A DNA stretch of 58,787 nucleotides from Guillardia theta CCMP2712 (taxonomy: Eukaryota; Protista; Cryptophyta): contig NW_005434597.1 of NCBI RefSeq assembly GCF_000315625.1, forward strand, positions 193,605 to 252,391, given 5' to 3'. Below the pieces are notes generated by a model. It ran no database searches. It was not told the DNA's origin and saw only the letters and a program-made list of their open reading frames with translations. Each line of letters begins with the position of its first letter. The first letter of the stretch is position 1. Below are positions 3,660-54,453 of this stretch, piece after piece. The translations under genes were made by a program, and so were the position numbers.

Positions 3660-4045
3660 AGAACCCCCACCCCTACCCCCCTTCGAAAAGTTTCATCCAC
3701 CCTCCCGTCTCCCCTTGACCACCCCACCCCTCAATGAGTGATTGCTGTCAAGAATCTGCTAGTCGCCCCCCCCCCCCTCCTCCCCCGTGTTCTTGTTTCC
3801 CACCTTATAATGTTCTGATCCCCCTCATACCCCTACCCCTCCCTCTCCACCATCCTGGGTCAATTACCCCTGATTCTACCAGAATTACCCCACCCTCATG
3901 GAAGGTGGTCGCAAGCCTTTATTACCCGGCGGATTTCATCGAACTTGGGGATAAAGGGTCGGGGTGGGTTTTCTTGCAGGGGATGGGAAAGCTGGGGGTA
4001 GTGGGGGGTGGTATAGGGGGTGGTATAAATGAAAGAGGGTGGGTA
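3660..4045. promoter_or_regulatory. ACCCC/GGGGT-rich 5' flanking block
   Basis: Clustered ACCCC then GGGGT motifs directly upstream of the dehydrogenase; same block type precedes most genes in the window. Confidence 0.45.
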
Positions 4046-4307
4046 AATGAGACTAGCTTTGCAGGTTTCGCAAACCATGCAGAGAGCGTGGAGCAATGGT
4101 CGCACAGCGTTCGGATCCCTCGGTCGATTCGGGAGCGCCAGGTACCTGATGTTTGATGAACATGCTACTACGAGTTCTTGTTTGATGCCCTGAAGGCTCG
4201 ATGAGCTTCTGATGACAGATAACGTTCCGTTTCTTTCGCTCATAGGTTGTGATTGCAGGGATCGTGTAAAGGCGAGTTTGCCCTCCTGGTACAACCTCCA
4301 GCGAGCT

Positions 4308-6699: not shown

Positions 6700-8180
6700 C
6701 CATGACCTGCCAGGACCCCTACCCCCCACCCCCCGTCAGTGTGACACCATCCTCTTGTTCTTTCGTTGACTGGGCGGGTGAGGTGCGGGTGGGGGGGTCT
6801 GACGGGGTGGGTTTCAAGGGCAAAAGTAGTCAGGCGGTACCAGTAGTAGGGTAGTCTTGTCCTCGTACTCATTTTAACTTAACTTTGAGTAAAGACGAAA
6901 AAGAAGATACTAGCCTAGGATGTCAGGGTCACCCCTTATCAAGTACGGTCAAAGTGAGGGGGCCAGGCGGGGGTGGTAACGGAGCTCGTGACATTGAAAA
7001 AAAGGCTCTCTCCATCCATAGCTAAAGGGGGTGGGGTAGTGTTTTCTTTCTTCAAAATCAGCGTCATCCACCCAAGGTGGTGGGTGAGGGGTACCGTAGC
7101 TGTAGGGGGAGAGGGGTGGGGTGGGTGGTTGCACAGTTAACGAATTTGACCCGAATGTGTCCCTACGCGATTCCTATGCCTCAAAATTGTTCCTAATACC
7201 CTGTCCTAGGACAGACAACCCTTCCTAGAAAGTTTCATTTTCAATAGTTGACTACCCGTCCCTGGACGATCTTTCAACCCCCATCTAGACTTGTACCCAC
7301 CGACTACCCCCACCCCCCTGCTCATGACCCCTTCAATCTTCGCATTCGCGTCAGCGTCCCCTGCATTTGTGAGGAGCTGTCATATCCCCTGCTAAACTGT
7401 GACTACCCCCACCCCTCTAGCAAATTCTTGTACTTGATGTGACCTTCTGTGAAGGGTACCTCATATTTTCCCTTGCATCACCCCCTACATTGACCTGACC
7501 CTCGAATAACTTTCTACCCCACCCCCTATGATTCCAGGGTCCCTGTTTCTACGTCCTGTACAGCCCGCCCGAAGTTTCATTCCATGGACCCGGTCCTAGG
7601 AAGGTACGAAAGCCCTACGGTAGCGGCCTCGGGACCTCTGAGTTTGACACTTGAGCCTTCACTCATTTGGGTACAGTTCAACAAAGGGTGGTAGGGTCAT
7701 TGATGAACCCCTACAGACGACATATTTTTACATAGTGAGGCATGGGTAGGTGGTGAGCGATCTGAGGGTGGGAGGGGGAGAATCGCAATAATCGGCGTCA
7801 CATCCCCGTCAAAAGGTACTGCGAGTACCCCACCTTTCCTCTCAGATTGCACCTCTTCGTAGGGGTACTGGCTACAAGAAAGGTATGACAACCCCTACCT
7901 ATACCACCCCCCACCTTGTTTTGTCAATAACCCACCCACATGTGGTTGTCATCGATCGCAGCACTACCCCCTACCATGTACTTTCAACTACCACCCCACC
8001 TGTTTCCAGTCACCCCACCACCCCCCTTTCCTCACACCCCTCCGTTTATCGTCAAACTACAGCAAATTTCATGTCAAGTTAACATCTCAGCATTTGACTA
8101 CCCTAGCTCAGGACTACCCCCCATGTCAATACAAATGAACCCTACCCACAACATGCGGTGCATTTTCTACCCCACCCCTT
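6700..8180. promoter_or_regulatory. Long ACCCC/GGGGT-rich 5' block upstream of TALE gene
   Basis: Dozens of ACCCC/TACCC/GGGGT motifs in both orientations; no coherent ORF. Confidence 0.45.
6857..6893 (+). repeat. Copy of dispersed ~38-bp motif TTGTCCTCGTACTCATTTTAACTTAACTTTGAGTAAA
   Basis: 35/38 identity to reverse complement of 3239-3276. Confidence 0.85.
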
Positions 8181-8459: not shown

Positions 8460-10212
8460 ACGTTGGCGATGATGAAACCTCAGCGCAAAGAAAGAAAAAC
8501 TTCCCCAAGCACACCGTAGATGAGCTTCGGAACTGGTTTCAGGAACATATCATGCATCCTTATCCCTCGGACGTTGTTGTTGAAATGCTATCACAAAAGA
8601 CTGGCCTCTCGAGCTCGCAGGTGGTTTGACATTTGCTTTGAAGTTATATGATTGACTCTGTCATTCAGGTCAGTTACTGGTTTGTGAATGCGAGGAGGAG
8701 GATTTGGCAACCTATGCTTCAACAGAAACGCAATTCCTCCCTCACTGGTTACGCCAAAGTCACAGCAAACGAAGATGGTGATGGTGACACCGACTCCGAC
8801 AATCAGCTGATCGAGATAGATGAAGAGAAGAACAAGATCAAGTCGTCCGATGCTGAGAGCCACAGCCCCAAGGCGCCAGCAGATCCCTCCATCCGCATGA
8901 TTCAGCAAAAGCAGGCGGAGCTCCACAGGTTTCAGTTCTCCCGGTTCGACTCGTGGTTCGACAGCAACTTTGAAATCACCGGCATCGTCAGTGACAGCGT
9001 CGGGGATGTGCTTCTTCAGTACAGCAGGATGGACAGATCGGTCAGCCTTGACAACTTGAAGGAGTGGCTAACCCACAAGGGAGTCACGCTGCGCAAGCGC
9101 AGCGGGGACGGCGCGCTGGTTTGTTGTGGGATCAAGAGGAGACTTGAGCGACCTCAGTTCATGGAAGAGACGAAGCCGCTGGGAATCAAACGCAGGAAGG
9201 TTGTGCAAGTGAGCCCTTCGTCGGATGGAAAGCTTCCTGGAATCAAGGATTTGCTGAATACTGCTTCATCGTCGAGGAAAGATAAGGACCCTGCGGATCA
9301 ACGTACATTCTTACAGCACGAGCTGCTGGAGTTAAGCAAAGCAGGGCAGCAAGCTCTTGTAGCTGATGCGTATCCATTCAAAGATCTCATGGAGGGCAAG
9401 GCCGTCCGGGTTCACGCAACACCTTGTGTCCAAGACAACAGCCCTACATTGCCGAATTCCAACAAGGCTGCTGCACTTGCTGCCATCATGCAGCAGATCG
9501 CTATGCCGCATCATACCCAACACTTTCAGCAGCCTGTGAGCACCATCGTACATGAGCAGCATCCAGCGTCCTTTGCAATGAATGCGATGAATCCGTACAT
9601 GGTTCCCTGGGTCGGAGGCAACATGCTTGCTGGAATTCATTCGAGCGCCGCTGCAAATGAGTACCTGAGCAACGCTCTCCAAAACTCGGTCACAAATCTT
9701 GTCGGCTACCTCAACTCACAGACGACAGCGTCCAGCATAGACGAAAGGACTTATTGTTGGATCTGCTCACAAAGGCTAGGAAGATGTCAAGTCAAAAGGC
9801 CACACAACAGCAGACGCAGGAGATGGAAGAGGCTGCTCAAATCTTGAAGAGGACCAGCTCGAGCAGCGCAAAAGCGCCGAGCCAAGTAGCATCTACGGGC
9901 AGCAACGGGGCGGCGGAGCCAGTGTCGACAGGAGAGATAGTTCGCATCACACACAACGGAAGCACAAGGAAGTGGACAGGAGTGAAGTCGTTGGAGGACC
10001 TCAACGTGCGATGCCAGAACACCTTCGGGAGGAGCTCTTACGTGCTGAGGTACAAGGACGATGACAACACTATGATCGACGTGACAACAGAAGAAGAGTT
10101 CCGAGACTTTGTCGCTTGTCAGGGGGGTGGGGTCCTCTCGTTGGAGCTCGCAGACAGGCCGGAGGAGGCTGCTTCCTCGTGCGGGAAGGAGACCCCGAAG
10201 GACGAAGAGTAG
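8460..10212 (+). CDS. TALE-class homeodomain transcription factor with C-terminal PB1 domain; 5' end uncertain
   Basis: RKKNFPKHTVDELRNWFQEHIMHPYPSDVVVEMLSQKTGLSSSQ|VSYWFVNARRRIW (PYP loop; intron 8621-8668 at homeodomain 44/45). Probable intron 9689-9735 joins to IVRITHNGSTRKW...YVLRYKDDDNTMIDVTTEEEFRDF (PB1 OPCA motif). Confidence 0.85.
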
Positions 10213-10453: not shown

Positions 10454-12562
10454 TCAGCGCCATAGGTGGAGGGAGTAGGAGATAGCCGACCAGCTGGATG
10501 TGCTTGCTAGCCGCGAGCATGTGCAGACGGCTGGAGTGACACGGAAGAGGAGGGGAGAGGAGAGCCCCTGCAGCTGCCAGTCATCAACCCTTCTGAACTC
10601 CTGTGCCCAGCATCCCTTCAACTGACCCTCCTCCACCCTTCTTCTCCTCTTCCCCTTGTTCTCCTCCTCCTTCCCCTTGTTTCACTCCTCCTTGTCCTCA
10701 GCGGCGGGGGCAGCTCACCTTGACGTAGTCGGTAGGGATGAGAAGGTCGGCTTCCTTCCTCCTGGGCTCATATCAAGATCCTTGCTGACTCTCCTCCTCC
10801 TCTACCTCGACTCCTCGTGCTTCGTCGATCCGCTCGCATACCACATTCCTAGAGCATGCGGCCCAACCTCCACGCGTGCACACTGGATCGAAGAGATAGA
10901 AGTAAGGAATGAGGAAGCGAAGCTGGGTTCGAACACAAGGAGGACGTGGAAGAAAGCAGGCAAAAGCGGAACGAGTGAAAGTGAGAGTGGCTGAGAGTGA
11001 GGGAGAGGGGAGAGGGGAGAGGGGNNNNNNNNNNNNNNNNNNNNNNNNNNNNNNNNNNNNNNNNNNNNNNNNNNNNNNNNNNNNNNNNNNNNNNNNNNNN
11101 NNNNNNNNNNNNNNNNNNNNNNNNGGACAGAAGGAAGGAGAAGGAGAGGGAGAGGGAGAGGGAGAGGGAGAGGGAGAGGGAGAGGGAGAGGGAGAGACAG
11201 AGAGAGAGGGAGAGGGAGAGGGAGAGTGGGGTAAGGGAGGGGGAGAGGTGTTTTGGAGGCTCAGCGCTCATTTCATACAGGATGGAGGAGGGAGCCATGT
11301 GGAGTCATACCTGATCCTCCTCCCGGTAATCGAAGGTTCGTCTTAATACTAGGAAGTCTCCGTTGAGAACATCTGGAGCATCTGCAAGGTATGAGGGGAA
11401 GGAGGCAGTGGGGGGAGGAAGCGGATGAGAACGAAAGATTCAGACAAGATGGAGATGAGCAGGACAGGAGGGAGGATTGGGGTATGGGAGAGGGAGACGA
11501 AAAGGCGGAGAATAGGATGGGGAGGAAAAACATTACCTAAGTGAAACTCGATGACAAAAGGCCCTTTGAGGACAAGCTGAGTGGGCTGGTGGCAGAGGCG
11601 CTGGACAAGAGACTTTCTCTCCTCCTCTTCGGAGATCTGGAAGACGAAGTTCTCCACCAGATCGTCCCCGAAGGCCCAGGGAGATCTGCGAGGAAGTTCA
11701 AGTTCCATCCTCCTCGTCTCCCTCCGTATGCTCCAGCTGCCCCACGTCCAGCTGCCGTTTGAGTCAGCGTCGCCCAGCTTCTTCCTCACATCCTCCTTCA
11801 GCTCAATGGCCTCCTGCTGCTGCTGCTGCTGCTGCTGGCTCTCTTTCATCATCGTCATCTGAACGCGAATGGTGGAGACGTTGAGAAGTTCCACATGATA
11901 CTCGTGCTCCGCACGTGAAGCGGCATTCCCACAATGCAAACGATCAAGGAGGAAACGATCGCAAGAGACCTGCTCCTGCTCCTGCTGATGCTCCTGCTCC
12001 TGCTGCTCTGACGTCCAAAGCTCAAACCTCCCCTTTTTCTCAGCCTCTGCCACCCTCTTCTCATTTCTTCCTACGTAAAAGTACGTCAAGCTCCCGTACC
12101 AACCCTCTGCCTGGTTGCTCTCCTGTGCATTCAAGCTGTTCTGCACGCTCCCGTGCTCCAAGCTAGCGACGAGCTGATGGTTGAAGGTGATGGCGTCTGC
12201 GAGCATGAGACGATAAGTGTGCCAAACATGCCCTTCGTCGCTGTCAGGAGGAGCCATGTGGGGATGGCGAATGTAAGGCGCGCCGTGAAGGGGCAGAGAG
12301 AAGTTGGCGAGGGCGATGTAGCCGTGAGCCGCGTTGAAGAAGTCCTCCGTCCCTGTCTCGTGGATGCTCTCGCTCACCTGTCATGATGGGAGTGAACACG
12401 AAGAGGAAGGGAAGAGAGCAGAGCAGGTGGGGAGGAAGTAGGACTTTAGGAATGGGGAACACGATGCTTAGCGGGGGAGCACGAAGTGGGGATGGAGAGT
12501 GAGTTGAGGAAGACGAGGACGAGGACGAGGAGGAGGAGGAGGAGGAGGACGAGGAAGAGGAA

Positions 12563-12619
<57 letters not shown>

Positions 12620-12908
12620 AATGAGGAGTATGAGTCAGCTCACCATACAATCCATCCAGAAGCGGTAGTCACCCTCGTAGAAACTCTCTCCTGCTCTTCC
12701 TACTCGACTCGTGATCTCCTGCGATACCCCGACTACATGTCCCCACGATCCCCGGCGGCGGAGGAGCTGAAAATCGGTTCCCCTCTGCGTGGCTGAAGGC
12801 TCTTTGTAGCACGTGTGGAATGTGCCGACAAGGTTGGGAGCGAGCGCGGAGAGCCAAGGCGGGTCCTTGACAAACTGAACCCGAAGACCGACGCTGAGGT
12901 TTAGCTCT

Positions 12909-12957
<49 letters not shown>

Positions 12958-15150
12958 CGTTGTTGCTGCAGACGATTCTGATCTCTGCGGAGCTAAAAAA
13001 GGGCATTGGAAAGTGACTGTAGCCCAGGCGATCCTCATGGCCAACGAAAAGGGAGCGCGCGCGATGATTTTGCTCCAGCTGCGACCTTCTCGTCCAGAGG
13101 AAGAAGGCAGGAAGCGGAGCCTGTACTTGCGGCTCAGCTTCATCGTCGAAGACAATCTGGAGGAGGAGGTTCCAAGGATCCTCTACATCCTTGAGGTCGA
13201 TCTGGATCGATAGAATGCATCCCTTTCCCCTCTCTGCCCACAAGACCGACGAGGAGGCAGCGGGCAGTTTGCGATCATCATCGACGAACGAGGTCGAGGA
13301 GTTGACGACGATGGAGGGGAATGGCAGATGTACGGCACCGACGTGAGAGAGGAGGCGGAGCGAGTCGACGAGGGCCTTCCTGTGCTTCACGGCCTCCCTC
13401 ACGGCAACATTGATCGGCATATCCTCCTCCTCCTCCTTGGTGAGCCCGAAGCGGCGATAGTCTACATCCCAGTAGATCTGCGAGAGGAGAGAGTAAGACA
13501 GAGCCAGAACACCAGAAAAGGAAGGGGCAGAGAAGCGAGGGACGGAGCGTTATCGAGCCTCCTTTCATACAACTTCACCTTAGTAGAGCAGATGGTTTCT
13601 TCCTCGAGGCAGCGGACGGAGTCTTGAAAGATTTGCTGAGCATCGTAGGGAGGAGGAACAGCGAGCGACACTGTGCATCGATGGCGGAAGAGGATGGGAA
13701 CCATGGAAAGGAACCCGAGGGAAGGGTCGCCGTAGCCAGCCAGGGGGTGCGAGAAAGGGGGAAGGCTGAGGGAGGTGAGGGTCTCGAACGTCTCATCCAG
13801 GTATGTCTCCCCGTCAACTCTCATCCTCACCCTCCAGCTCGGCCCTGAGCCGTTGGGAGCATCGAGGAGGGGAATGAAAATGCGGGTGATGAGCCCTGGC
13901 CCGAAGTCATCGAACAGCACCAGCTCCATGCGCTCCGCTCGGAGGAAGTGACTGAAATCGGGCATCCTCGGCAATCCCGAGTCGGAAGACTGGTGCATTG
14001 AAATGCTCCTCCTCCTCCTCAGAGGCATCAGGTGAAGGTTGAGGAAGAGGTCAAGGCCGAAGAAGTCAGCTTTACCCTCTTTGGTGCTATCCTCCCCCAG
14101 GCCCTCCTCCTCCTCCACCTCGAGATCATCGACCATCACGCACTGTGTCGGATCTTGAAAGCATGGTTTCGTGATCTTGTTTTCCTTGTTTGCCATGAAG
14201 AGGAGCGAAGCAGCAGTGGTATGCTCTGCTCGCTCATTGACTATGACGATGGTGAAGTTGTACACTACTCCTCTTTCAAGCTCCACCGTATTCATCGAAA
14301 TGCTTCCTTTAGCATTCCAGATGTCAATGACATGCTGCCCGTTGAGCAGGACGCGGCCCGAGATGTCTCCCGCAAGATCTTCTATCCTGTATCCCACCCA
14401 CACATCCTCCTCCTCCTCGAACACGTGCAGGTTTGGGGGAAAGTCGAAGAAAACTTGAGGACCCAAAGGTTTGTGGGCCCTCTCGAAGTCGATGTCGGGC
14501 AGGGTTCGTATGCAATGACCGTCGTTGGCCCTGATGTCGAGGTACAACATCACCTGTCTGAGGGCTGATAGTAAGCAGCAACCATGAAAAATCCGCCATG
14601 GCATGCAGAGGCAGCATATGGTAATCAATGGTACCTGATCTTACGGTGTGGACCAGCGAGCTCATCCGAGTGAAGCTCGATCAACCACTTGTAGCTGCCC
14701 GGCGGGAGAGCACTAGTCTGCGCTACCCAAACAAGATCGTGGTTGAGGGTCAAGGAGAGCATCATGGTCCCGTACTCGATCTCTTTCGGCGCTCCACCTC
14801 CTGAGATCACCAGAACTTTCGCTGATGCCATGGTATGGACTTCTCTTGGTACACCATACAATGGCCTCATCGCTGTTCCATGACAGTCAGAGGAGGGAGG
14901 AGGTCATAAGACAGGAGCCATGGAAGGATCCCTCACCTATGAAGATGGCCTTGGAGGAGCACAGGACGCTATGATTGGACGGAAAGAGTAACTCGACCTC
15001 CTCCTCCTCCTCCTCCTGCGCCCCTGCCTTCCCTCCATGAAGTTCATCTCCCTCCTCCTCCAAGCTTCCTAGCGCTCCTCCATCAACCATTACGAGGAGG
15101 AGGAGGGGGAGGAGGAGGAGGGGGAGGAGGAGGAGCCGGCGGCGGCGCAT
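10454..15150 (-). CDS. Secreted DUF2961 / glycoside hydrolase family 172-like protein, multi-exon
   Basis: Signal MRRRRLLLLPLLLLPLLLLVMVDG; LFDDFGPGLITRIF, YSHFPMPFFSSAEI, GHVVGV, FYEGDYRFWMD, ETGTEDFFN, YRLMLADAITF...SLEHG; spans the N gap at 11025-11124. Confidence 0.8.
11025..11124. other. Assembly gap (100 N) within intronic GA-rich repeat
   Basis: N run. Confidence 0.99.
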
Positions 15151-19949: not shown

Positions 19950-20560
19950 ATGTACACATATTGTTTTTACTTAGTACTCCACTTAAGAAAATACACAAGT
20001 AATCCACCCAGGTTTGTACTTGTCCCTGCCCCTCATCCCCAGAGTCCATTTTTGTTTTGTTTGAACTAAACTTTCTCTCCCCGAAATAGTAATCTAATTC
20101 CTACCCCACCACCGGTTGATACCCCCCAGTACCAGTACCATCCAAGATCCTACCCCACCACCTCAAATAGATTGTTTTGACCCAGAATATAACGGGTGCC
20201 TTCATGAGACTTTGGTTACCCACACCCACTGCAAGTCGCCCCCCACCCGAATTTTTTGAGGGTGGGGTCCACCCATACTCATAGCACCCCCACCCCCTAA
20301 AATCGAACATTTCAAACGCTACGCCCTGACATTTTTAGTACTGATTCACAGGGCGTTGACCACCCCCACCCTCAATAATCATTGAACATGTATACCCACC
20401 CTGACTAGCCGTAGGGGTACCCACCGAGGTACCCACCTGCTCCATTGAACAACAGGGCTATGAGGACTCTACTGCAAACTTCCAAGTTTTGAAATTCTGT
20501 TTCTCTTGTTGAAACTTTCTGTTTAAATAGAAAACTTTAAACTCAAGAGTTCACAGGAAA
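19950..20560. promoter_or_regulatory. Divergent promoter region: ACCCC block plus AAACTT/AAGTT cluster
   Basis: Lies between divergent transaldolase and oxygenase genes; clustered ACCCC motifs then AACTT repeats at about 20475-20555. Confidence 0.45.
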
Positions 20561-20572
20561 GAGAATTTGGCC

Positions 20573-23500
20573 CATGGCCATGCGAGGTGAGGCCGAGGAG
20601 GAGGAAGGAGGAGGAGGAGGAGGAGGAGGAGGAGGAAGCAGAGGCAGCCAGGACGAAATTAGGGGTGGAGGAACTGGAGGAGATAGGTATATGAGGAGGG
20701 ACCTGGGATACCAAGAGCATGGTGAGCAGCATGAAAGGCGTTGACTTCGTCGGACTTCGGAAGGAGTTCAGAACGTGCAATAGCTTGGGATATATCGGAG
20801 AACTTTGTAGTAATCAGACGACGGAGAGAGCTGTAGAGACCTCGATAGGTCAGACAAGAGGACTAGACATGTCGTATGCGGGCAAGTTAGGAATAAGGGA
20901 CATGGTTCAGACAGGTAGTTGATCTGACTTCGAATTTCCCGTAGGGCTGGCGACGCTCTTTTGCTGCCTCCTTGGTTTCTTGCCATGTCCGTGGCGCGGC
21001 GATCATCGAAGACCATTCGAGCACCTGGAACTCGGCGGGACTGAACGAGACGCTGGCAAGAGGCTTCGACGACGTCTTCCCGCAAGAACTTTTCGATCGG
21101 GTGGTCAACGAGGCCCTCGTGTTCGAGAAGTACGAGAAGGATGAGCGAGCAAAGGCTGCAGGAGGAGGATACATGCATGGTAAGGGCGGCACCTTCTGGA
21201 GGCCTCTGTTCAACGAGCATGGCGACTTCCTGAAACCGCGGTTCGCGATCGAAGCAGCGATCATCATGCTGTACAAGAACGACATCGGATCGTCGAGGCA
21301 CCCGCGGGTGACAGGAGGAGAGTGGTGGGTGCAGAAGAGGTCGTTGAAGGAGGACATCGGCTTCCACCATGACAAGGACGAGGCCATGGCGTCGCTCAAG
21401 AGCACAATGAAGTTCCCCGAGGTCTCGACTGTGACCTACCTGCGAGGGGAAGGGGCGCCTACGGTGATCTTCAACCAGACGACGCCCGACGGCAACGCGC
21501 AGGTCCCCATCTCACCTCGGGAGGGCTTCCTCTCCTACCCCAGGGAGAACAGGCACCTCATCTTCAGGGGGAACCTCCAGCACGGAGTCCCCGCAGAGCT
21601 CGCCCCTGAGAACGGTGAGAGCGCGGTGCAGCTGCGGGGGAGGGGAGGAGAGAGGATCACGTTCCTGGTGAACTGGTGGGGCACGAAGCCTCTGGGGCCA
21701 AACTGCAACACGGTGAGGAAGAGAGAACAGGAAAGGTGAAGAAGGGAAGAAGCAAGGGGGAAGTGGAGTGGGGATGGGGAAGGGGAAGGGGGAGGGGAAG
21801 GGGGAGGGGAGGGAGCATGAGAGGATCGGGGGGTTAAGTCCAGGGGATGCAGGTGGGGACGAAGCTGGTGAAGCAGCTGGGGTTGTTTGACAAGGAGGGA
21901 GTCCGCGAGCTCTTCCCTGTCGCTCGTCTACAAGCAGCACAAGTCTAAGGCGGATCCAGTGAAGAGATGAGGTGAGGGGAAAGGGACTGCGAACTGCTGC
22001 TGCTCCTGCTGCTTGAGGAGGAAGAAAAAGAAGGGGGGGGGGGCGCTTGGGGGAGGAGGAGCGGGGGGAGCAAGGATCAGGAGCAGGAGGAGAAACAGGA
22101 GCAGGGCGGGGGAGGGGGACGGGGATGCAGCTGCTGACCTTTGCCGCAGATCCCCGAGAGCCCCGAGCTCGTGAGCAAGCATGAGGTAGAGCTCTGTGCA
22201 CTGTTGAGCTAGCAGGGTAGGATGAAGTGTAATGGCTAGGTGGAGATTCCGGGAGGGGAGATGATTTTCTACACGCTCCCTCGGAGGAGGGAGCCAGGAA
22301 ACCTGTACAGCATTACATGGCCATGGCACACGATCTTCGGCAACCTCTGCCGACTGAACCTCCAGGTCTCCTCCTTCCTCTCCTCCTCCTGCTTCTTCTT
22401 CTTCTCCTCCTCCTCCTCCTGCTTCCCCTCTCCCCTCCCCCCCCCCATCGTGTTGCCTCTCCCCTTCTTCTCTTCCAGCTCCATCATTCTACTCCTTACT
22501 GCCCATCGAGCAGGGAAACATGGTCCGAGCGCTCTTCTTCGAACCCCGGCCTAAGGTATTCCTTCCCTCCCTTGCTCTCTCCCTCAGCAAACTTGATTCT
22601 CCTGGAAATTCCCTTCCCCGCTCTTCTTCCTTCCTTGCCGTGCTCGCACTGTTCCATTACCACACCCCTGGTCACTGCCGCCTTCACTAGCTTCCTCGTC
22701 ACAATTCTGAACCCTTCCATCTCATACCAGTTCCCCCCCCCTCTTCACCTCCTCCCTCTCACCTCCTCCGCACCTTCTGGCTGACCTCTACGCAGGTTCT
22801 CGTGTTCACTTATCAGGTCGAGCTTCGTATGCTGTCTCTGAGCTGCTGAGCCCCGAGGATCCAGGAGGAAAAAGTGTTGGAGTGGCTCAAGCCTCTCTCC
22901 AAGGAGCACGAGCAGGAGCTTCGATTCGTCATCGCCAACCCCTCCAAGACTTCGGTCATCTTTGTCCTCCTCTGCATATTCATCCTCCTCTCTCCCTCCC
23001 TCCCCCTCCCTCCCCACTCCTTCAGCCCTTCCTGCTTCTCACTGTTACCGACACCTCTTTCCTCTATCCGTCTTTTCCTTTCTGTCCTTCCCCTCAGTCT
23101 CCCAGCCTCCCAGTCTTCTCTCCTCTTCCTTCTCACCATGGCCTCCAGGATGCCCTCCGAGCCTTCGGGCTGACAGTTGCGGATGTCCCAATCGCCGTCA
23201 TCCACGTCACTCAACCGCAGGTCTGCCATGCTCAACGACGAGGATGAGGACGAGGAGGAGCGTCAGGCTTTTTACCTTGTTGTGCAGGAGAAGAAGTTCT
23301 TGATGCCGTACAAGGAGAAACGAGAGGAGGAGGGAGGAGGGAGGAGGAGGTATCCACCAGCCTCCCTAGCGCAAGCGCTGACCTGAGACATGAAGGATGA
23401 AGCCCTCGGCCAAGTCTATGAGGAAGATGATCAAGAAGTTCAAGGTAACACTGAGAATAGCAGACCTTCTTGCTCCTCCTTGCACGCTCTCTCCGTTTCT

Positions 23501-23645
23501 TGCTCCACATGTCTCCTCCTCCTTCCCTCTCACTTGCTCAACTTTCGAATCCTTCCTCTCGATCATTTCTCAACTCGTGCTGTCATGACAGGAGGGACGT
23601 CTGCCTCCCATGGGGGGACAAGATGCTGACGACGGAGACAACTGA
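20573..23645 (+). CDS. 2OG-Fe(II) dioxygenase-like protein with C-terminal thioredoxin-like (PDI b'-like) region; 5' end uncertain
   Basis: GGEWWVQ...IGFHHDKDE (HxD), PEVSTVTYL, IFRGNLQHGV (distal His), RITFLVNWW (2OG-binding Arg). Later exons LEWLKPLSKEHEQELRFVIANP..DALRAFGLTVADVPIAVIH..KKFLM. Confidence 0.7.
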
Positions 23646-23840
23646 AGTTCGTGCCCACATTATTCTTTTCAGCGTCATTCGACTCTCTATGTGCGTGGCG
23701 ATCGCCTCACGTCAGAATCCCAACTCTGCCTCCAACACCGTACGTCAAGCTCGTCTCGTTTCGTTTCTTTTGATTTTTCGAATCAATCCCTCATCTCACT
23801 CATGTTGATTATTCAAATTATACACAAAAAAACACGCCCT

Positions 23841-25410
23841 TCACTTGTCACGCCCCTGCCTTCGCCTTGCGGACATCCCTCCCTCCGCCGGCTTCCTAAC
23901 CTCCTCAAAGTTCTGTGACGGCAGTGAGTTGGAGCAGCAGTGGCAAGGGACTGAACCTGTAGGAGGAGTCTGGAAGCGAAGTCGTATGCATCGTCCACCT
24001 CTGCGACATCGTTCACCTTCTCAGCATCTCCCCGCGTTACCTCACACCTGCCCAGTTCACTGCTCCTGTGATGACTGTCTTGGAAGAGGGGAAGATGCCT
24101 GCGAGACCGTAAGGGAGGAAGGGGAGACTTGTCACAACAAAAGCAAGAGGAAGTGTGGAGGACCAGGAGTATCCAAAGTATCCTTGCATTCTCAAATCAT
24201 AGAAAAGCAGGCAAAAGGATGAGCATTGCGAAATTCGCAAGAAAAGAGAGAAGATGAATGGGAAACGGGCGGGGCAAAGACAACAAGAACTCATCTCACC
24301 GATAAAGACTTCTCTCTTCACATTCGTAGCGTCGGAAACAGAAGCGATCTGAGGAGGCTTGAAGAGGATCTTAACTCCAGCATACCTGTTCATCGTCAAC
24401 TCACCACACCCTCCCGTCATCGTTGACCTCTTCTCCGGCGTGTATTCTACACTTTTTACACAATGCGAGTATTCCGGCCGTGAAACAACATCTCTAAAAA
24501 CAAAGAACCAAAACAGGAGAGTGAGAATCATTTCATCATGGAAAGATCTGCTCTCACCTCAACAAGATTGGATCTAGAGTGTAGCCAACAAACGAGTACC
24601 CAGCATCAAACGTGCAGTTGATGTTGACAGTCTCAGGTGCTAGAACTTCCGAGAATTTAATCGGTCCATGGACTGCAACGTGCTGGCCGCTAGGCTCGCA
24701 AACGTGCCTGAGACAATTTCGTTACTCCTTCAAGCAAACATCCAAACAAGCAAAAACCGCTCGAAGACGGATGGGCCGTCGGGCACATGGTCGTATATGT
24801 TGTTCAAGGAATTTATCACGTGGCGCACAATCTTGTTACATGTTCCCTCATCCTTACATCCCGCGATTTGTAATCTCCCCGTCTTAAAAACTTTCACACT
24901 GATGTTTGGGTTGCATTGCATGGACAATCTCAGCTGAACTTGATGCGCGAACTGTCTCTTTGCATCCTTCACTTTCCCACGGCTGATGGACACGCTGCTT
25001 CCGTTCTCATCCTTGTACTGATACGACAGACCAACTATCCCCTCCTCCACATCCTCGTTCACGAAATCAGAGTCCATGAAGCACTCGCTGAACATCCTTA
25101 GATCTATTGAGCCATCATGCGGCGAGAAAAGATCAACAACAAACGCCATCATCGACACAACTGGCTCTCTGCAGGTCGGCTGCAAACCACCATCGCGCGT
25201 CTTGCGGGGGAAAAGCGCGAAATGCAACGAAGCTGCAGTGGATTCATGCTCAAGGGCCGAAGCGAGTCGCATCGTCCTCTCCTCATCCTCCTCGAAGTTC
25301 TTGAACAACCTGGAGACAATGAGCGTCTTGGAGGAGGCAAAAAACGCTGCACACCTCTTCATCTCCAGGTCCAACTGCTTTTCAATGTCTCGCGCATCGA
25401 TCTCCATCTG
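23841..25410 (-). CDS. Divergent TATA-binding-protein (TBP)-fold protein resembling NCLDV TBP-like proteins; additional 5' exons likely up to ~25950
   Basis: Repeat 1 KRQFAHQVQLRL...NISVKVFKTGRLQIAGCK. Repeat 2 after splicing: TVNINCTFD...EYTPEKR|YAGVKILFK...REVFI|GIFPSSKTVITGAVNWA|EVDDAYDFASRLL. Several GT-AG introns. Confidence 0.8.
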
Positions 25411-25959
25411 AAACCCTCGGTCAACTCACGGGCAGACATTCACACTGAAAGGATCATGTTTTGGCTGGCAACATATCTTAGCACTTTAGATTTGTGCATG
25501 ATCCATGTCTTGCTAGTCTAGTATCATTAGACCTAAAGTGTCCAAGCTCTCATCATGATATGGATACTTCGACCACAAAACGAGAGGCCGGCAAACCAGC
25601 GGGCCATGGACAAACTGCGCGCGGCAGCTTTCCCCCGATCCTCCTCCTCCAACACAAAGATGTCAACACCTCAACGGCAAATCTATCACTTCTTCTCTAC
25701 CAACACGCATCCTCTCATGCATCTGTCCGTGCTCATGAGCCCGCGCGCCGGACGTTTGCTCTGGTTCCTCCCACCCTACACCACTGGCTTCATCGAGCCT
25801 TCTCAAGTCGCTACTTCGTTTGGATTCTACCATTCACCTGCTATACCTCATCCCTGCCCTTGTACTGATCTTGATCCTGTATGCTGTCTTCCCCCTACTC
25901 CTCCTCCTCCTCCTCTCCTCGCCTGCCACGCCGGCCTCCCTGTCTCCGTCTCCATTTCG

Positions 25960-26800
25960 CCACCCACCCACTGATTGACCCCACCCCTCACAAAATCAGT
26001 AACCCCTCCATTTGTTGCTTAAATGGGTTGAAGAAGACCCTGGCTCGCATGTAGACAGAAATTAATTAGTAGTACAATCGATGAATATTGAATCTTTGAT
26101 ATTCATATTTCTACACACTGGTACCTCCACCCCCTAATACCCACCTCCGCTCAGACCCTACCCCTGCAGAATGTTATTAAACTATCGGCTCAAACTACGG
26201 TACCAAGACCCTGCAGGCCCCTCGTCTTTATATTACTCACTTCTCGAGATTGTACGGAGATTATTCTGTCTGGTACTGCCAGATACGATCTCTTTACTGC
26301 AGGACTGTACCACAGAACACTTTTGAAGTTATAGAGGGACCCTCATCCCTCCTCAAACACTGTAGGTCACGGGGGCGGGCCCGCCGTCGCATCACCGGAT
26401 CGGAGGCCGCCAGACCGTACAGTCTCGGCTGCGGCGGGACCGGCACAGTCACGACGGTGGTGCACTGGCACGGCACCCGGCCATCCTACAACTGCAATGT
26501 AACTTCCGTTGACTCAGTGAGCCTCAGGCCCGCCGCGCCTTGCCAAGTCACAGTCGGGCCCGGCTCGGCGGCTGCCAGTCGGGCGGCCGACCGGTGGCAA
26601 GTAGCCCGGGCTCGGTGGCAGGCCCGGCCGTACTACGGTAGTAGCTGGCGTACTAGGCTTGCCGCCTAAACCCTAACTTACTAAACCCTAAGGCTGTGCG
26701 GATGCCATCATGATGCCGCACCCCGGTGACCGTACACTACACTGACTACTGTGACAAGTACTTGAAACGGCGTGGGCCTCGAGTATCACGGTAAGTCAGT
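25960..26800. promoter_or_regulatory. Tandem-junction intergenic module: ACCCC block, then GC-rich GAGTC block
   Basis: ACCCC motifs 25960-26220; GC-rich 26370-26790; TGACTCAGTGAG at 26510-26521. Confidence 0.45.
26665..26691 (+). repeat. Two telomere-like AAACCCTAA (telo-box) motifs
   Basis: CCTAAACCCTAA ctta CTAAACCCTAA. Confidence 0.55.
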
Positions 26801-26845: not shown

Positions 26846-28014
26846 CTACTTCTTGCCCCTATTCTTAGCGAATTGACGAAGTCCGTTCTTCCAAACTTCT
26901 TCGGTCATTCCTAAGTAGCAGGTCAGTACCAACTTAAAGGGAAGCAGAGGTACGCACCTCTCGGAGTATGGATGCAAGTGACTCCCAAGGGCGCTACGGT
27001 GTGGCAATTATGGGCCTCGTTATCTGCGGGCTCCAGTCAACCTCCCGAGAGCGATCGCAGAGGGTCAACAAGGCCCGACCAAAGAAGATCATGTCTTCGT
27101 AGGGGATCCCTGTCTTCTTGTGAATGTTCCGGAAATGCGTCGACTTGGAGGATTTGAAGATTTCCTTGATGTCGACGACCTGTCGGCATGCCGGACATCA
27201 CAAAAAATCTTGGAACGACTGACATGTTCACTCACGGATTCGAGGGTCATTCCATCTCCAATCTCAAAGAGCCTCATGCATTCGTCCGCCCATGTGGGCT
27301 CGTCAGTGCACGAGCAGTAGGCTATCTGACCAACGCTCGCGTCAACCAAGATACGGAATAAACCTTGTTAGCACACTACCTTGGCTCCCTTCCACCTCGG
27401 GCTTGTTTTGATCTCTCGGAGGATCTCTGCAGTGTTGCCCATCAGATAGCATCGTGTTCCGGATCGATCGGTCAGAGTCTTGTCGTTGTTCTTCTTGAAA
27501 GGAGATCCTCCTCCCCATAGCTGAGAATCCCAGTCATCCCCAACCTTCCCTTGCCAGAAAACACACCTGATACATCTCTGGGTACCACAAGGTAGCATCT
27601 AGATCAAAGGCAACCACTTTAGGCAGGACTTCTGGGATGCATGACATCAGTGCTGAAAGCTTCCAGTCGGGACAGCTTTGAACCTTGCTTGTCTGCAGCC
27701 ATGGTGAACAGGGCCCTCTTGCCTTGGCAGCTCTCTTGGAAACTATTGCACTCCGATCCCTGGAACAATATCCATTATTTGCGGCAGAGAACCAGGAAGG
27801 AGATCAAATGTTGAGTTTTACAGTGTCAACTTGCTATTCGATACATCACACCGAACCCATCTCGCACCTTGGAAAGAGATGATAGCAGTAGGATTCCCAA
27901 AAAACTTCCTGCAGATGTTTCGGTGAATTTCCTGTAGTAGCTCGGAGTTATCGAATTCTTGAGCGCAATGGATGAGTGTGCAGAAAATGCTGCAACTGGT
28001 CTGCTCAAACGCAT
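26846..28014 (-). CDS. MDP1: Magnesium-dependent phosphatase 1 (HAD IIIC) family; core starts MAADKQ at 27702, possible N-terminal targeting exon from 28014
   Basis: LPKVVAFDLDATLWYPEM (DxD motif), IAYCSCTDEPTWA, KSSKSTHFRNIHKKTGIPYEDMIFF|DNEAHN, LGVTCIHTP. Confidence 0.88.
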
Positions 28015-28249: not shown

Positions 28250-29300
28250 GATCCAATAATATTCCAAGGAACTTTGCAAACTTTGAACTTTAAGAAAATG
28301 TTCCGGGAGCCTCGAAGTTTCAGATTTGAAAAATATCTGAAATTTCAAAGCCCTCGTCCCCCCTCATCACCGATTTTCTATATCAGGACAAGTTTGTCCT
28401 GACGATCACGGGTGGTCAGCAGCCTTGAGCGGCTTACAACCAGGGGGTACACAAAGGGCTGCTAGCATCTGAAATCACCCTTTTTCGAGATTTTCCCACC
28501 CCCTTACTTTTCGGTTTCGGTTGGAACATCCCCACCATTCAGGTTACATCCACCCCACCCCCAGCACCACCCCCACATACACAATTGACCCACCACTTAA
28601 CCCGACCGATTGTAATGATAATGAAGATACATTCGGTGTACCCCCACCCCTGTATTTCAACATAAAATAACCCCTCCATAAGTGCCTTTGTTGACTTGGA
28701 GACTTTCACCCACCCCCCTCGTATGCACTAGGGCTAATAAATCCACAAAAAAGAATGTAAAAGACTTTTATGACGACTTCTGGGTTTACAAAAAGCGTGT
28801 ACGAAGTGAAAAAGTCATCTGGTACAAATAGACACGATATATGTGTATGAATTCAACACATTTTCATAAAAGACAGTAATAATGTACATAAATCTGATAC
28901 AAAATTACTAAAATAATAATATTTTAACATAGCTGGTACAGCCAATCTTTTTGAAAAATTGATTTTTAATGAATTCAACTTCCGGAACATGCAATCATGA
29001 TGGTCTCTGGAATCGACTACCCCTCCTCTTCTCTCACTACCTACCCACCCCCTGTAGTTAACCCCTGTACCCTTCGTGACCGACGCTATGCTGAGCACCC
29101 CATAGTTTAGCTGCACGGATTCTGTACCCCTACCCTGCAGGATCCCCTGCTTCACTACCCCTTGTTGCGACTTGACTACCCGTCCTTTGGACCGTGCCCC
29201 CTCTGGCTCCTTCATTGGTAATTCACTACCCCCCCGTTGTCCTCTCAAGAACAGAATGGGGGGGTAGGGGTCATGTCTCCCTCGGACGTTACCCATGCTG
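28250..29300. promoter_or_regulatory. Divergent promoter region with AACTT cluster, ACCCC blocks and an AT-rich island (~28735-28985)
   Basis: Composition and position between divergent MDP1 and kinase genes. Confidence 0.4.
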
Positions 29301-30015: not shown

Positions 30016-32385
30016 ATGGAGAAGTACGAGTTAGGAGCGCCTCTCGGAGAGTAAGTCGCGCATTCTCTCTCTCCTCATCCATCTGTCCCAACTTCGAACT
30101 CGATCCCCTCACTCTATCGCAGGGGAGCTTTTGCTGTGTGCAGGTTAGGGAAGAGCAAGGCCACGCCAGATCTAAAAGTGGCGGTGAGATGAGTGCGACA
30201 AAAGCGTTCGAACATTTTGATCTCGCAACAGGTCAAGACAGTCTTGCGATCGCATCCGCACTTTGACATGAAAGCGCTGAATCATGAGATCACAATTATG
30301 AGGGCAGCAAATCACCCCAAATGTATTGGGCTAATCGAAGTCATCGAAGACAAGCAGGCCGTTCACTTGGTCGAGGAACTGTGAGACAGAAGCTCGGTCC
30401 AATCTCTTGTCTGTCTTGACGTGAGGTTCTAGGGCTTCTGGGGGCGAACTGTTTGATAGGATCGTTGCTCTCGGCCGATTTACCGAGAAGGACGCGGTGT
30501 TCCTGGTGCACCAGGTATGGTAGTGGGGTCACGGTGGTTCGCCTCAACCGATCTCCAGGTGTTCGACGGCATCGCATACCTCCACTCGATCGACATCGTC
30601 CATCGCGACTTGAAGCCTGAGAATCTCCTCATGGTCGGCAGGTACTCAAGTTTACTCGTACTCTCCTTGTGGTCCTTGGCTTAGGATTCGTTGCCAGGGA
30701 TGAGTCGGACCCTTCATACATGCAAATCAAGATCGCAGACTTCGGGCTAAGGTGAGAAATGTGGTCCAGTCGGCTTGGAGGGCATACGTTGATGTTCATG
30801 CTCGTCCAGTGCCATGAAAGCCAACGCCAAGTCCGATGAGGTTTGCCAGCAACTTCGTTCTTGGTTCACTCGTGGTTGACTATTGTGGTTGTTGCAGGAG
30901 TGGAGCAAGGAGATGAGGGAATTCTGTGGTACACAAGACTACCTGGCACCGGAAGTCTTCAAGATTGGTCAGAAAGTCGAACGAGCCCTCTAGTTTCCTT
31001 ACACGTTCCTTTTCAGCTGCCCTTGGCAAGAAAGCTGGTAACTTACAGTACGACGCCAAGGTGTGATGGTCTGTCTTTTCCCTTCCTTGTCATGATCTGG
31101 ATTTGGACAGGTCGACGTTTGGTCGGTTGGAGTCATTTACTACATCATGTTGTGCGGATATCCTCCTTTCTACTCGGAGGACAACGACATGTTGAAGATG
31201 ATCCAACAGGTTGGAAAAGTGTCTGTTTGTGCCATGTCACCGCCATCTGCACCTGCTAACATGCAAACCTCTCAGATCATGCACGCGAAGTTCAAATTCC
31301 ATTCCCCCAAGTGGGACTCTGTCTCCTCTGACTCCAAGGATTTCATCATGAAGTGCCTGACGGTATGGATGAAACCCACGTCAACAGTTTCCCAGGGATC
31401 CTCATCAACTTGTTTCTGAACTCCTTACCTTCCTGCCTGATTGTTTGCTGCGCTTGCTCATCAGTGTACAGGTCGACACTTCAAAACGGCCGTCAGCTGC
31501 TGAGTGTATGAAGGATCCCCTCTTTGCTAACAATCATGTCTTCTCCGAACAAGCTCTTGACGTGTGTTCTGCTTCGCATGTTATTCTCATCTCAACACTT
31601 GTCCCTCAGGTCAAGGATGATCTGCGCGAGTTCTTGTCTAAGCGCAGGAAGAAGGTGAGAGATCTCTGCTCTTGCCGCAAGATTGTTGTCGGGTTTGACT
31701 CTCATGTGAAGGTGCTCGGAGCGGTCAAAGCTATCGCACGCATGGAGACAATCGCCAACTTCAAGTTCTTTCGGGTTTCCCTTGCTCTCAGTGCCCCAAT
31801 GCATCCGATTGACTCGTGGGGTTCAGGATCCGAAAGATCCTACACAGCGCGAGGCTGAGAGATTGTTCCGCACCATCGACAGCCTTGGTAATGCTGCGCC
31901 TTGGAGTGTGGCCCCCTGGTAGTGACGGCGATTTAAGGGAACAGCAACGGCTTCTTGGAGCTGTACGAGGTCATCTTGTACATCCAGGTGAGACTGAAGC
32001 AGAACAGGAGAAGGGAGGGAGGGAGGGCAACATAGACATACAAACTGACTTTCCGTGCAGGAGTACATGCAGCACATGTTCTACAAGAAGAACAGCATGG
32101 GGGACAACGTAGTGGATGAGAAGAAGCTGAAGGACTTTGCATCAAACCTGAGGAACTTGGTAGGGAGGAGGGAGGGAAAGAGGGGCTGGTTGAGGGCAGG
32201 AGGAGGGAAGGAGCTTGCATGACGGTGCTTCAAGGTTGACACGAACAAGGACGGAGCCATCTCCTTGGAGGAGTTTGTTCAAGGGTTCGTGACGTGGAAG
32301 CACTTCATCGAAGAGCAGGTGCTGTCAAGACTTGAGGAACAGGAGGAGGGCCGAGTTAACGCCATGGCAGGAGAAGGCTTCGTAA
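30016..32385 (+). CDS. Ca2+/calmodulin-dependent-type Ser/Thr kinase with C-terminal EF hands (CDPK/CCaMK-like), ~18 short exons
   Basis: LGE|GAFA, VA|[53 protein letters not shown]; basic segment KRRKK|[11 protein letters not shown]; EF loops DSL|[11 protein letters not shown] and [13 protein letters not shown]. Confidence 0.93.
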
Positions 32386-33609: not shown

Positions 33610-34140
33610 GCCAGAACCCTCTACCTACCCTCCCAATGGGGGTACCCCACAACATTGTACCCCCACCACTGAATTTAATACCCCACCTGATGAATATCAA
33701 ATTCTTTCATATGAAATTTACCGGTAATCAAACGCAAATTGAAGTACCCTACCCATTATTATGGTATAATTCTTTGATGTACCCCTTCCTAATTGATGAG
33801 GACCATCATGTTTACACACCCCCCTTTTCCTCTGAGTATTAACCGGTGTGAATGACTCAAAACCACCCCCTCCAACCCCCTCCACACTACCCTATTTTTC
33901 GACTCCATCAACAGGGGTCATGGACCCCTATTATGGACCCCCCTCTTTCGAACGAAACTCACCGGTGCTAACAAAACCAATGAGGGTAGGGTAGAAGAAT
34001 TATACTATCTGTGGTAGGGTGATCGAGTCTCATGATACTAATATGGGTGGGTATATTAAGTATTTAATGGGGGTAGGGGGTAACACATCTCAGTCCTCGA
34101 TGAGGTAGGGTATCAATTGAGTAGGGGGGTGGGGTGAATA
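33610..34140. promoter_or_regulatory. Bidirectional promoter ACCCC/GGGGT block
   Basis: ACCCC-dominated left half and GGGGT-dominated right half between divergent genes. Confidence 0.5.
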
Positions 34141-48915: not shown

Positions 48916-49331
48916 ACAAAATCTGGATCCGGGCGGAAGAGATCTGAGGTGGGCCTGAAAGGCAGAATTAAAATTTAGAATTTGATTCAAGCCACTATCT
49001 TGCTGTCTTTTGCGAGCCTGAGGATACAGACGAGGCAGGCTTGCTGATCCCATTTCTTGCTTCTCGGAGCAGGATCATGGCGATGGAGGGAGGTAGGGGG
49101 CAGGGAGAATGGCGGGTGAGGAGGATCTCAGGAGAGGAGGGTCAAGGTAGAGGAGGATACAGATAGACGATGATGAAGGAAGAGGATGCTTATCTACTTG
49201 AGAGGGTGGGCAGTCTTGTCCTGGTTGCCGATCGTGCATAGAAAGATCCAAGGACCAGCTGTCTCTGCTGTTGATCCAAGGGGAGGGAGCAGGAAGCGCC
49301 TGTCATGCGCGAACCACGTCGTTAGCACAGT

Positions 49332-54453
<5,122 letters not shown>

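What the first reader, a model, noticed from the sequence alone, without database searches (positions are those of the whole stretch)
23841..25950. Intron-containing, giant-virus-like TBP paralogue in an algal nuclear genome
Seen: two TBP-fold repeats with the four DNA-intercalating aromatic positions plausibly kept (RQF, KVF; KRY, GIF), but far from canonical TBP (no NIV/YEPELFPGL/IFSSGK identity). It has insertions, a long N-terminal extension and multiple host-type introns. The signatures K..F..Q, KVFKTG.LQI.GCK, NINC.F, Y.GVKI.F and AY.F resemble my recollection of NCLDV TBP-like proteins; this is not verified by search. No other viral genes are nearby. Inference: a domesticated viral TBP-like factor acting as an alternative initiation factor, possibly linked to the unusual ACCCC-rich promoters here, or an antiviral decoy.
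Basis: partly seen in the sequence, partly recalled or inferred. Interest (0 to 1): 0.8.

Follow-up and report, generated by a model that had tools for sequence, protein, structure and literature searches.

The report
Algal giant-virus-type TATA-binding protein family
A cryptophyte alga has a spliced, strongly conserved gene for a TATA-binding-protein-like factor that resembles giant-virus versions more than its cellular ones, likely captured long ago from a virus and predicted to act in the nucleus as an alternative promoter-binding factor.

Summary
The gene (minus strand, CDS 25407-23841, 357 aa, seven GT-AG introns) is Guillardia theta GUITHDRAFT_114666, annotated 'hypothetical'. Contigs of five probable RNA runs from four studies splice it; the start is 25407, not about 25950, so the N-terminal extension is only about 60 aa. 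An orthologue's model is a two-lobed TBP fold (Z 14-15 to TBPs); the intercalating positions are F138, F159, Y275, F305. Orthologues (65-98% identical) span two cryptophyte orders, with two further paralogue groups, one fused to an HMG-box-like domain. Profile, language-model, structure and tree evidence link the family to Nucleocytoviricota TBPs (joint clade 100/99-100; grouping with canonical eukaryotic TBP rejected, p-AU 2e-6). It also shares their inserts and 11 of 28 diagnostic residues (2 with eukaryotic TBP). Direction is not shown: nesting among viruses is favoured but a sister position is not rejected (p-AU 0.35). Function is inferred. A separate canonical TBP in this genome, mirusvirus TBPs and TLF/TRF outgroups were not tested. 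ACCCC is enriched in the window, but nothing links it to this protein. No description was found in 10 literature searches.

The parts
23841..25407 (-). CDS of the TBP-like gene, 8 exons (25407-25355, 25309-24758, 24707-24558, 24493-24428, 24385-24300, 24098-24048, 24000-23957, 23912-23841), 357 aa; = G. theta GUITHDRAFT_114666 / XP_005826211.1 apart from intron 1
25408..25619 (-). 5' untranslated region (in-frame stop upstream of the ATG); covered unspliced by one contig (X3), while contigs of X2, X4 and X7 stop at the AG next to the ATG, hinting at an alternative 5'-UTR intron
25310..25354 (-). intron 1, 45 nt, in frame and stop-free; retained in the public gene model (372 aa), spliced in 4 of 5 contig runs (the fifth contig starts below it)
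24708..24757 (-). intron 2, 50 nt, GT-AG
24494..24557 (-). intron 3, 64 nt, GT-AG
24386..24427 (-). intron 4, 42 nt, GT-AG, inside the C-lobe stirrup coding region
24099..24299 (-). intron 5, 201 nt, GT-AG
24001..24047 (-). intron 6, 47 nt, GT-AG (also seen in one raw RNA read of X19)
23913..23956 (-). intron 7, 44 nt, GT-AG
24793..25182 (-). N-terminal TBP lobe (about residues 61-190) with F138 and F159 and the virus-type insert before F138 (66 residues between anchors against 29 in canonical TBP)
23895..24637 (-). C-terminal TBP lobe (about residues 226-340) with N230, stirrup T270/P271/E272, Y275, F305, T313
23844..23897 (-). basic C-terminal tail, a possible nuclear localisation signal (inferred)
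   Evidence: 17 of 19 family tails against 8 of 21 viral tails have 4 or more K/R in 7 residues

Best explanation
This is a spliced, conserved cryptophyte gene for a two-lobed TBP-fold protein of the giant-virus type, likely captured from a large DNA virus before the cryptophyte orders split, and predicted to work in the nucleus as an alternative TBP that bends and marks a non-canonical promoter element. Shown: gene structure, splicing, fold of an orthologue, conservation, three paralogue groups, and closer kinship to Nucleocytoviricota TBPs than to the canonical TBPs sampled. Inferred, in order: (1) a single old virus-to-host transfer (about 0.7), then gain of introns and a basic tail, and duplication; (2) nuclear import; (3) minor-groove binding and kinking through F138, F159, Y275 and F305, with changed base read-out because the first Asn is replaced (M71) and several flanking saddle residues are polar as in viruses (K157, Q165, N232); (4) recruitment of a TFIIB-family adaptor in an altered way, since only one of the two acidic stirrup residues is kept (E272; T270); (5) likely escape from Mot1/TFIIA/TAF1-type control, as most of the basic helix-2 patch is lost (residues 176, 181, 184 and 188 are not basic; R180 is).
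For: Splicing: 6 of 7 joints in 5 of 5 contig runs and intron 1 in 4 of 5, four studies; the DNA-type run X15 is unspliced. Constraint: 195 of 357 positions invariant over 10 orthologues, 39 of 46 in the N-lobe sheet. Orthologues in Hanusia 98%, Geminigera 84% and Cryptomonas paramaecium 77%. Fold: model of orthologue P0005 (84% identical), pLDDT 89.4, aligned to TBPs at Z 13-15, rmsd 2.0-2.7 A over about 180 residues. Viral kinship: of the best 150 hits among 1.84 billion representatives, 64 are family-like and 83 of the other 86 are viral-type; none scores above 45 bits on canonical profiles, where a canonical control scores 213 and 136. Family profile medians: viral 45.5 (n=80) and 44.8 (n=72, motif-sampled), eukaryotic 19.6 (n=26), archaeal 15.3 (n=50). 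ESM Atlas: the three clusters shown are 94-100% viral TBP, commonest Nucleocytoviricota, and all 30 hits share the TBP family set. The best BFVD hits are NCLDV TBPs, E 4e-15, against 2e-9 for PDB TBPs. Trees: family plus viral-type clade 100/99, 100/100, 100/100; family plus canonical eukaryotic TBP rejected, p-AU 1.8e-6. Shared inserts and 11 against 2 diagnostic residues. Paralogue B carries an HMG-box-like domain: the top 29 structural rows are HMG-box proteins, best Z 8.1. Orthogonal viral TBP-TFIIB pairs and the stirrup and helix-2 roles are from passages of PMC7221094.
Against: Direction is unresolved. In tree 1 the family is sister to the viral-type rows (93/84). In trees 2 and 3 it is nested only through two long unnamed rows, P0091 and P0109 (95/90, then 87/85), whose viral origin was not shown. 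Viral monophyly is not rejected (p-AU 0.35). The branch joining family and viruses is very long (1.8-2.3 changes per column), and the AU test shares the model's long-branch pull. No TLF/TRF2, dinoflagellate, kinetoplastid, Giardia or labelled mirusvirus TBP was in the trees. Part of the viral set was chosen by likeness to the family profile. At 15 of the 28 diagnostic columns the protein matches neither group. No DNA-binding, localisation or partner data exist. Yeast residue numbers and roles used as labels are recalled and were mapped through a fungal TBP (L087) by sequence alignment only.
Confidence: 0.5

Rival explanations
1. The family is an ancient eukaryotic TBP paralogue kept mainly in cryptophytes; it is the sister, or the source, of the giant-virus TBP rather than a capture from a virus.
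For: Sister position in tree 1; viral monophyly not rejected, p-AU 0.35; deep internal divergence into three named paralogue groups plus unnamed members P0034, P0038 and P0136; host-like GC and GC3 (0.51 and 0.61).
Against: All named members are cryptophytes, so many losses elsewhere would be needed. The broader trees nest it among viral-type rows, and only 1% of 200 bootstrap trees keep those rows together.
Confidence: 0.18
2. It was captured from a nucleus-replicating mirusvirus rather than from a Nucleocytoviricota virus; the role would be the same.
For: TATA-binding protein is a core mirusvirus gene (passages of PMC10132985 and PMC12768974), and G. theta's assembly holds mirusvirus capsid homologues of clade E03 (passages and table of PMC10827195).
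Against: All labelled look-alikes are Nucleocytoviricota. No IMG/VR relative of P0136 was confirmed. No labelled mirusvirus TBP was available to compare.
Confidence: 0.1
3. It acts against or upon viruses, either as a decoy that binds viral promoters or viral TFIIB, or as a regulator of endogenous viral elements, and has no role at host promoters.
For: It keeps a virus-type saddle and a changed stirrup. Viral TBP and TFIIB form orthogonal pairs (PMC7221094). A table in PMC5294986 appears to list a Mimiviridae-like VLTF3 in G. theta (column read from flattened text).
Against: It is spliced in all five contig runs that cover it, from four studies. Conservation is TBP-like rather than arms-race-like. 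It has a basic tail and an HMG-fused paralogue. Culture conditions of the runs are unknown, and contig depth does not measure expression.
Confidence: 0.1
4. It has replaced canonical TBP as the main nuclear TBP of cryptophytes.
For: Near-invariant beta-sheet and helix segments across two orders, also in Cryptomonas paramaecium.
Against: One acidic stirrup residue and most helix-2 basic residues are lost. From recall, cryptophytes are not reported to lack TBP. The genome could not be searched.
Confidence: 0.07
5. It is a fast-evolving duplicate of canonical eukaryotic TBP, drawn to viral TBPs by long-branch attraction and convergence.
For: The stem is very long; treekit's own simulations show such joins can be false; N230 and V311 match eukaryotic TBP.
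Against: Inserts fall at the same places with similar lengths: N1-F1 is 66 against viral median 62 and canonical 29; F1-F2 is 20 against 20 and 16. Residues are 11 to 2 in favour of viruses. The AU test rejects this grouping under a site-heterogeneous model, and non-tree methods agree.
Confidence: 0.05

Closest known systems
Nucleocytoviricota TBP-like proteins (e.g. Terrestrivirus A0A3G4ZLQ9, ChoanoV1 A0A5B8IQX1, HaV01 A0A1C9C511; ASFV B263R more distantly)
   Same: Two-lobe fold, insert before the first Phe, K157, Q165, N232, Y275-x-G-V-K pattern, long linker, third aromatic Tyr.
   Different: Nuclear gene with seven spliceosomal introns, host-like GC, far slower evolution, no Cys-rich C-lobe insert, a helical 60-aa N-terminal extension, a basic tail, and its own C-lobe insert (N2-F3 44 residues against 33-37). 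No close viral relative: 0 confirmed of 122 motif matches in IMG/VR.
Canonical eukaryotic and archaeal TBP (PF00352)
   Same: Fold (Z 13-15, rmsd about 2 A); three of four Phe, N230, T313, P271, E272.
   Different: 20-25% identity in the structural alignments; five inter-anchor segments longer; first Asn, one stirrup Glu and most helix-2 basic residues lost; grouping rejected by AU test.
Cellular TBP paralogues (metazoan TBPL1/TRF2, dinoflagellate TLF, Entamoeba TRF1)
   Same: Likely the same kind of role: a TBP-fold factor with altered DNA read-out (PMC7221094 passages on TBPL1; the others from search listings and recall).
   Different: Those are held to derive from cellular TBP, and TRF2/TLF lose intercalating Phe (recalled); this family keeps four aromatics and is virus-type. 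No sequence of these was compared here.
Virus-derived nuclear proteins of protists, e.g. dinoflagellate DVNP (recalled)
   Same: A gene shared with large DNA viruses that became an intron-bearing, duplicated host nuclear family.
   Different: DVNP is a chromatin-packing protein; this is a basal-transcription-factor fold. The comparison is from memory, not from a call.

Membership tests
TBP fold (PF00352) | Two pseudo-symmetric lobes forming a saddle | tested here: met
   Pfam two stretches above cut-off; orthologue model, Z up to 15.0 over 188 residues
TBP fold (PF00352) | Four intercalating aromatic residues | tested here: met
   F138, F159, Y275, F305; invariant in 7 of 7 group A and 7 of 7 group B rows
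Canonical eukaryotic TBP | High identity to the core and clade membership | tested here: not met
   13.8 bits on the eukaryotic profile against 212.9 for a canonical control; p-AU 1.8e-6
Canonical eukaryotic TBP | Both Asn of the saddle centre and both acidic stirrup residues | tested here: not met
   M71 and N230; T270 and E272 (roles from PMC7221094, and recall)
Canonical eukaryotic TBP | Basic helix-2 patch for TFIIA/Mot1/TAF1/Brf1 | tested here: not met
   1 of 5 mapped positions basic; sequence mapping only
Nucleocytoviricota-type TBP | Shared inserts and signature residues | tested here: met
   11 of 28 diagnostic columns viral, 2 eukaryotic, 15 neither; segment lengths within the viral range for 4 of 5 segments
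Nucleocytoviricota-type TBP | One clade with viral TBPs to the exclusion of canonical TBP | tested here: met
   100/99, 100/100, 100/100; long-branch caveat
Nucleocytoviricota-type TBP | Nested inside the viral radiation (viral donor) | tested here: inconclusive
   95/90 and 87/85 with two unnamed rows; p-AU 0.35 for viral monophyly
Recent endogenous giant-virus insert or contamination | Viral neighbours, no introns, foreign composition | tested here: not met
   0 viral families in 150 ORFs, seven introns, GC 0.51 against window 0.54
TLF/TRF2 and other divergent cellular paralogues | Clade membership | not tested
   no labelled sequences were obtained
Mirusvirus TBP | Clade membership | not testable with these tools
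   no labelled mirusvirus protein was available; only paper passages
Alternative initiation factor | Binds promoters, bends DNA, recruits a TFIIB-family protein | not testable with these tools
   needs ChIP/DAP-seq and biochemistry

The most novel reading that the evidence does not exclude
Cryptophytes domesticated a giant-virus transcription-initiation module: a virus-type TBP, expanded into three or more conserved paralogues (one fused to an HMG box) and possibly working with captured viral partners such as VLTF3, runs an orthogonal promoter system in the host nucleus beside or in place of canonical TBP, perhaps reading the C-rich intergenic motif.
Probability: 0.2. Interest if true: 0.9.

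Novelty: new variant of a known kind. Interest (0 to 1): 0.66.

Why it matters
TBP is among the most conserved eukaryotic proteins, and its known paralogues are thought to come from cellular duplications. A conserved multi-gene family of virus-type TBPs in a whole algal class would be a case of a basal transcription factor passing from giant viruses into a host nucleus; in the reverse direction, it would be a living cellular sister of the NCLDV TBP, which bears on where giant viruses got their transcription machinery. It gives a testable handle on the little-known promoter logic of cryptophytes and a slowly evolving stand-in for structural work on viral TBPs.

Tried and rejected
No whole genome was held, so a separate canonical TBP, TFIIB-like or VLTF3 genes and G. 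theta's own paralogues were not searched. No RNA holder is on record as RNA among the indexed runs; the spliced runs are 'RNA?' guesses. The one declared RNA run, X19, gave 21 reads with one junction read, and X1 showed no spliced contig. The long extension from about 25950 was rejected. Pieces of the loose 5' end of the X2 contig were not found in the window; this is unexplained. IMG/VR scans with the family alignment (0 of 122), P0091 (0 of 3) and P0136 (0 of 2) found no relative, and P0109 gave only 3 weak partial matches; the large-insert alignment was too divergent to scan. The last protein search found only group C relatives (6 hits, 7997 candidates scored). The bacterial promoter scan is uninformative. 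Earlier findings of this scan: none. Literature: ten searches, including the accession numbers (0 papers). PMC7221094 has no Guillardia or cryptophyte mention in its text or in 4 searchable supplements (one picture PDF not searched). PMC6672047 says nothing on cryptophyte TBP in the passages seen. A recalled 2022 survey of virus-eukaryote gene transfer was not held; it and other subscription papers may list this gene in supplements. No dN/dS was computed, as no orthologue DNA was fetched. Complex prediction was not used, as no partner was in hand.

Full report
Gene structure. The region holds a minus-strand gene. Contigs of five probable RNA runs (X2, X3, X4, X7, X10; four studies) skip the same GT-AG introns: six of the seven joints in all five runs, and intron 1 in four, the fifth contig starting below it. 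The DNA-type run X15 covers the stretch unspliced. The runs are guessed, not recorded, as RNA; the one declared RNA run gave 21 reads, one across intron 6. Joining the exons gives a 357-aa frame from 25407 to the stop ending at 23841. It equals G. theta GUITHDRAFT_114666 ('hypothetical protein') except that the public model retains the 45-nt first intron. An in-frame stop precedes the ATG, RNA-type cover ends at 25619, and the Hanusia orthologue starts at the same Met. The long extension from about 25950 is therefore not coding; about 60 helical residues precede the core.

Fold and key residues. Pfam TBP matches two stretches above cut-off. AlphaFold2 on an 84% identical orthologue (P0005, 82-row alignment) gave pLDDT 89.4. 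It aligns to archaeal and eukaryotic TBPs at Z 13-15, rmsd 2.0-2.7 A over about 180 residues. Mapped through a fungal TBP, the intercalating positions are F138, F159, Y275 and F305. The second saddle Asn (N230), T313, P271 and E272 are kept; the first Asn is M71, the first stirrup Glu is T270, and four of five helix-2 basic positions are not basic. The roles of these positions come from passages of PMC7221094 and from recall of yeast numbering.

A conserved family. Orthologues (group A) are 65-98% identical and include named Hanusia phi, Geminigera cryophila and Cryptomonas paramaecium proteins, that is two orders. Over ten group A sequences 195 of 357 positions are invariant, 39 of 46 in the N-lobe sheet. 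Group B (41-46%; Proteomonas, Baffinella, a Rhodomonas fragment) and group C (24-27%; Proteomonas) are paralogues; Proteomonas has both. Six long group B proteins share an N-terminal three-helix segment, modelled at pLDDT 78-93, whose top 29 structural matches are HMG-box proteins (best Z 8.1, a modest score; Pfam only E 0.21 in 1 of 6). P0034, P0038 (transcriptome records) and P0136 join the family with 100/99 but have no named organism.

Kinship with viruses. A family profile run over 1.84 billion representatives gave 896 hits at E up to 0.001. Of the 150 listed, 64 are family-like and 83 of the other 86 fit a viral profile at least 20 bits better than either canonical profile; none exceeds 45 bits on canonical profiles. 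That viral profile is partly circular, having been built from loci found with some of these hits. Those loci are IMG/VR contigs, 46 of the 80 kept named as giant-virus MAGs by my count, with topoisomerase II, MutS and Pox A22 neighbours among the four of five loci that had Pfam-matched neighbours. A separate motif-sampled viral set scored the same (median 44.8 bits, n=72) against 19.6 for 26 eukaryotic and 15.3 for 50 archaeal TBPs. The ESM Atlas returned Nucleocytoviricota TBP clusters for P0005 and P0038 (P0005's recognition value is below the tool's threshold, so this is weak alone). Foldseek ranked NCLDV TBPs first in BFVD. Three LG+C20 trees (59 of 87 rows, 64 rows, 42 rows; 209-218 columns) join family and viral-type rows at 100/99-100 (the bootstrap had not quite settled). 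Forcing the family with canonical eukaryotic TBP is rejected (p-AU 1.8e-6). Because this stem is long, characters matter: the segment before the first Phe is 66 residues (viral median 62, canonical 29), the next 20 (20; 16), the linker 61 (47; 33), and at 28 columns where viral and eukaryotic majorities differ the protein matches viruses at 11, eukaryotes at 2 and neither at 15.

What is not shown. Direction: the family is sister to viral-type rows in tree 1, nested through two unnamed long rows in trees 2 and 3, and viral monophyly is not rejected (p-AU 0.35). I prefer capture because all named members are cryptophytes while the viral type is widespread. Divergent cellular paralogues and mirusvirus TBPs were not sampled; mirusviruses have a core TBP and traces in G. 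theta (passages of PMC10132985, PMC12768974, PMC10827195). Whether G. theta has a canonical nuclear TBP could not be checked.

Context. Of 150 ORFs scanned (of 198 that passed a length and complexity filter), 9 hit Pfam, all cellular families. CDS GC is 0.51 and GC3 0.61, within the range of four neighbouring ORFs. This is an old, assimilated gene, not a recent insert or contaminant. ACCCC occurs 180 times against 132 +/- 11 expected, in clusters that look intergenic, including five copies at 25978-26164 upstream of this gene; nothing ties it to the protein.

Mechanism. Most likely (0.5 for the whole chain) the protein enters the nucleus (basic tail in 17 of 19 family members against 8 of 21 viral ones), binds and kinks DNA with its four aromatics, reads a non-canonical element through a more polar, virus-type saddle, and recruits a TFIIB-family adaptor largely outside Mot1/TFIIA control. 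All of these steps are inferred. Rivals are an ancient cellular paralogue (0.18), a mirusvirus donor (0.1), an antiviral or provirus-directed role (0.1), replacement of canonical TBP (0.07) and artefact (0.05).

Literature. Seen as passages: PMC7221094 (plus supplement search), PMC10132985, PMC10827195, PMC12768974, PMC12606086, PMC6559170, PMC12220804, PMC5825884, PMC5294986 and PMC6672047 (the last two plus supplement search); others only as search listings. PMC7221094 covers viral TBPs and animal paralogues without cryptophytes; PMC5294986 surveys five other NCLDV markers and appears to list a VLTF3 in G. theta. Ten searches, including the accessions, found no description of this family; subscription papers and unread supplements on virus-eukaryote transfer may list it.

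Verdict: a real, apparently undescribed variant, a virus-type TBP family fixed in cryptophyte nuclei, with origin direction and function still to be shown. Interest 0.66.

Noticed in passing
L001:42-1907 (IMG/VR contig): A canonical-type 186-aa TBP lies next to an NCLDV major capsid gene; it branches between eukaryotic TBP and the viral-type clade, suggesting a separate host-to-virus TBP capture.
   Followed up: partly
proteins P0003, P0031, P0033, P0048, P0242, P0243: Cryptophyte paralogue B fuses an HMG-box-like domain and a long Q/S-rich linker to the virus-type TBP.
   Followed up: partly
protein P0034: A family member from an unnamed transcriptome has a weak C-terminal UBX match (E 0.017, below cut-off).
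   Followed up: no
window 3663-4021, 6715-8178, 20103-20418, 25978-26164, 28444-29271, 33639-34135: Clusters of ACCCC, often preceded by CT, partly strand-biased, in regions that look intergenic; 180 against 132 +/- 11 expected over the window. Could be a cis-element or a decayed repeat.
   Followed up: partly
window 25409: Contigs of three runs stop at the AG just before the ATG, one with 39 extra letters not found in the window; possible alternative 5'-UTR splicing or a chimera.
   Followed up: partly
window 25310-25354: The public gene model GUITHDRAFT_114666 retains this in-frame intron; the RNA-type contigs remove it.
   Followed up: yes
window 23400-23912: Contigs of X3, X7 and X10 run 800-1800 letters past the laid stretch at the 3' side, so the transcript probably abuts or overlaps the convergent plus-strand gene that ends near 23640 (inference).
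   Followed up: no
window 8500-8700: Sequence that looks like a TALE-class homeobox split by a short intron (recalled motif; not matched in the Pfam scan of long ORFs).
   Followed up: no
window 4194-5682, 11352-13549, 27092-27367, 31096-31416, 49326-50567, 52834-53730: Neighbours: Glu/Leu/Phe/Val dehydrogenase, two DUF2961 pieces, acid-phosphatase family, protein kinase, DXD glycosyltransferase, weak methyltransferase.
   Followed up: no
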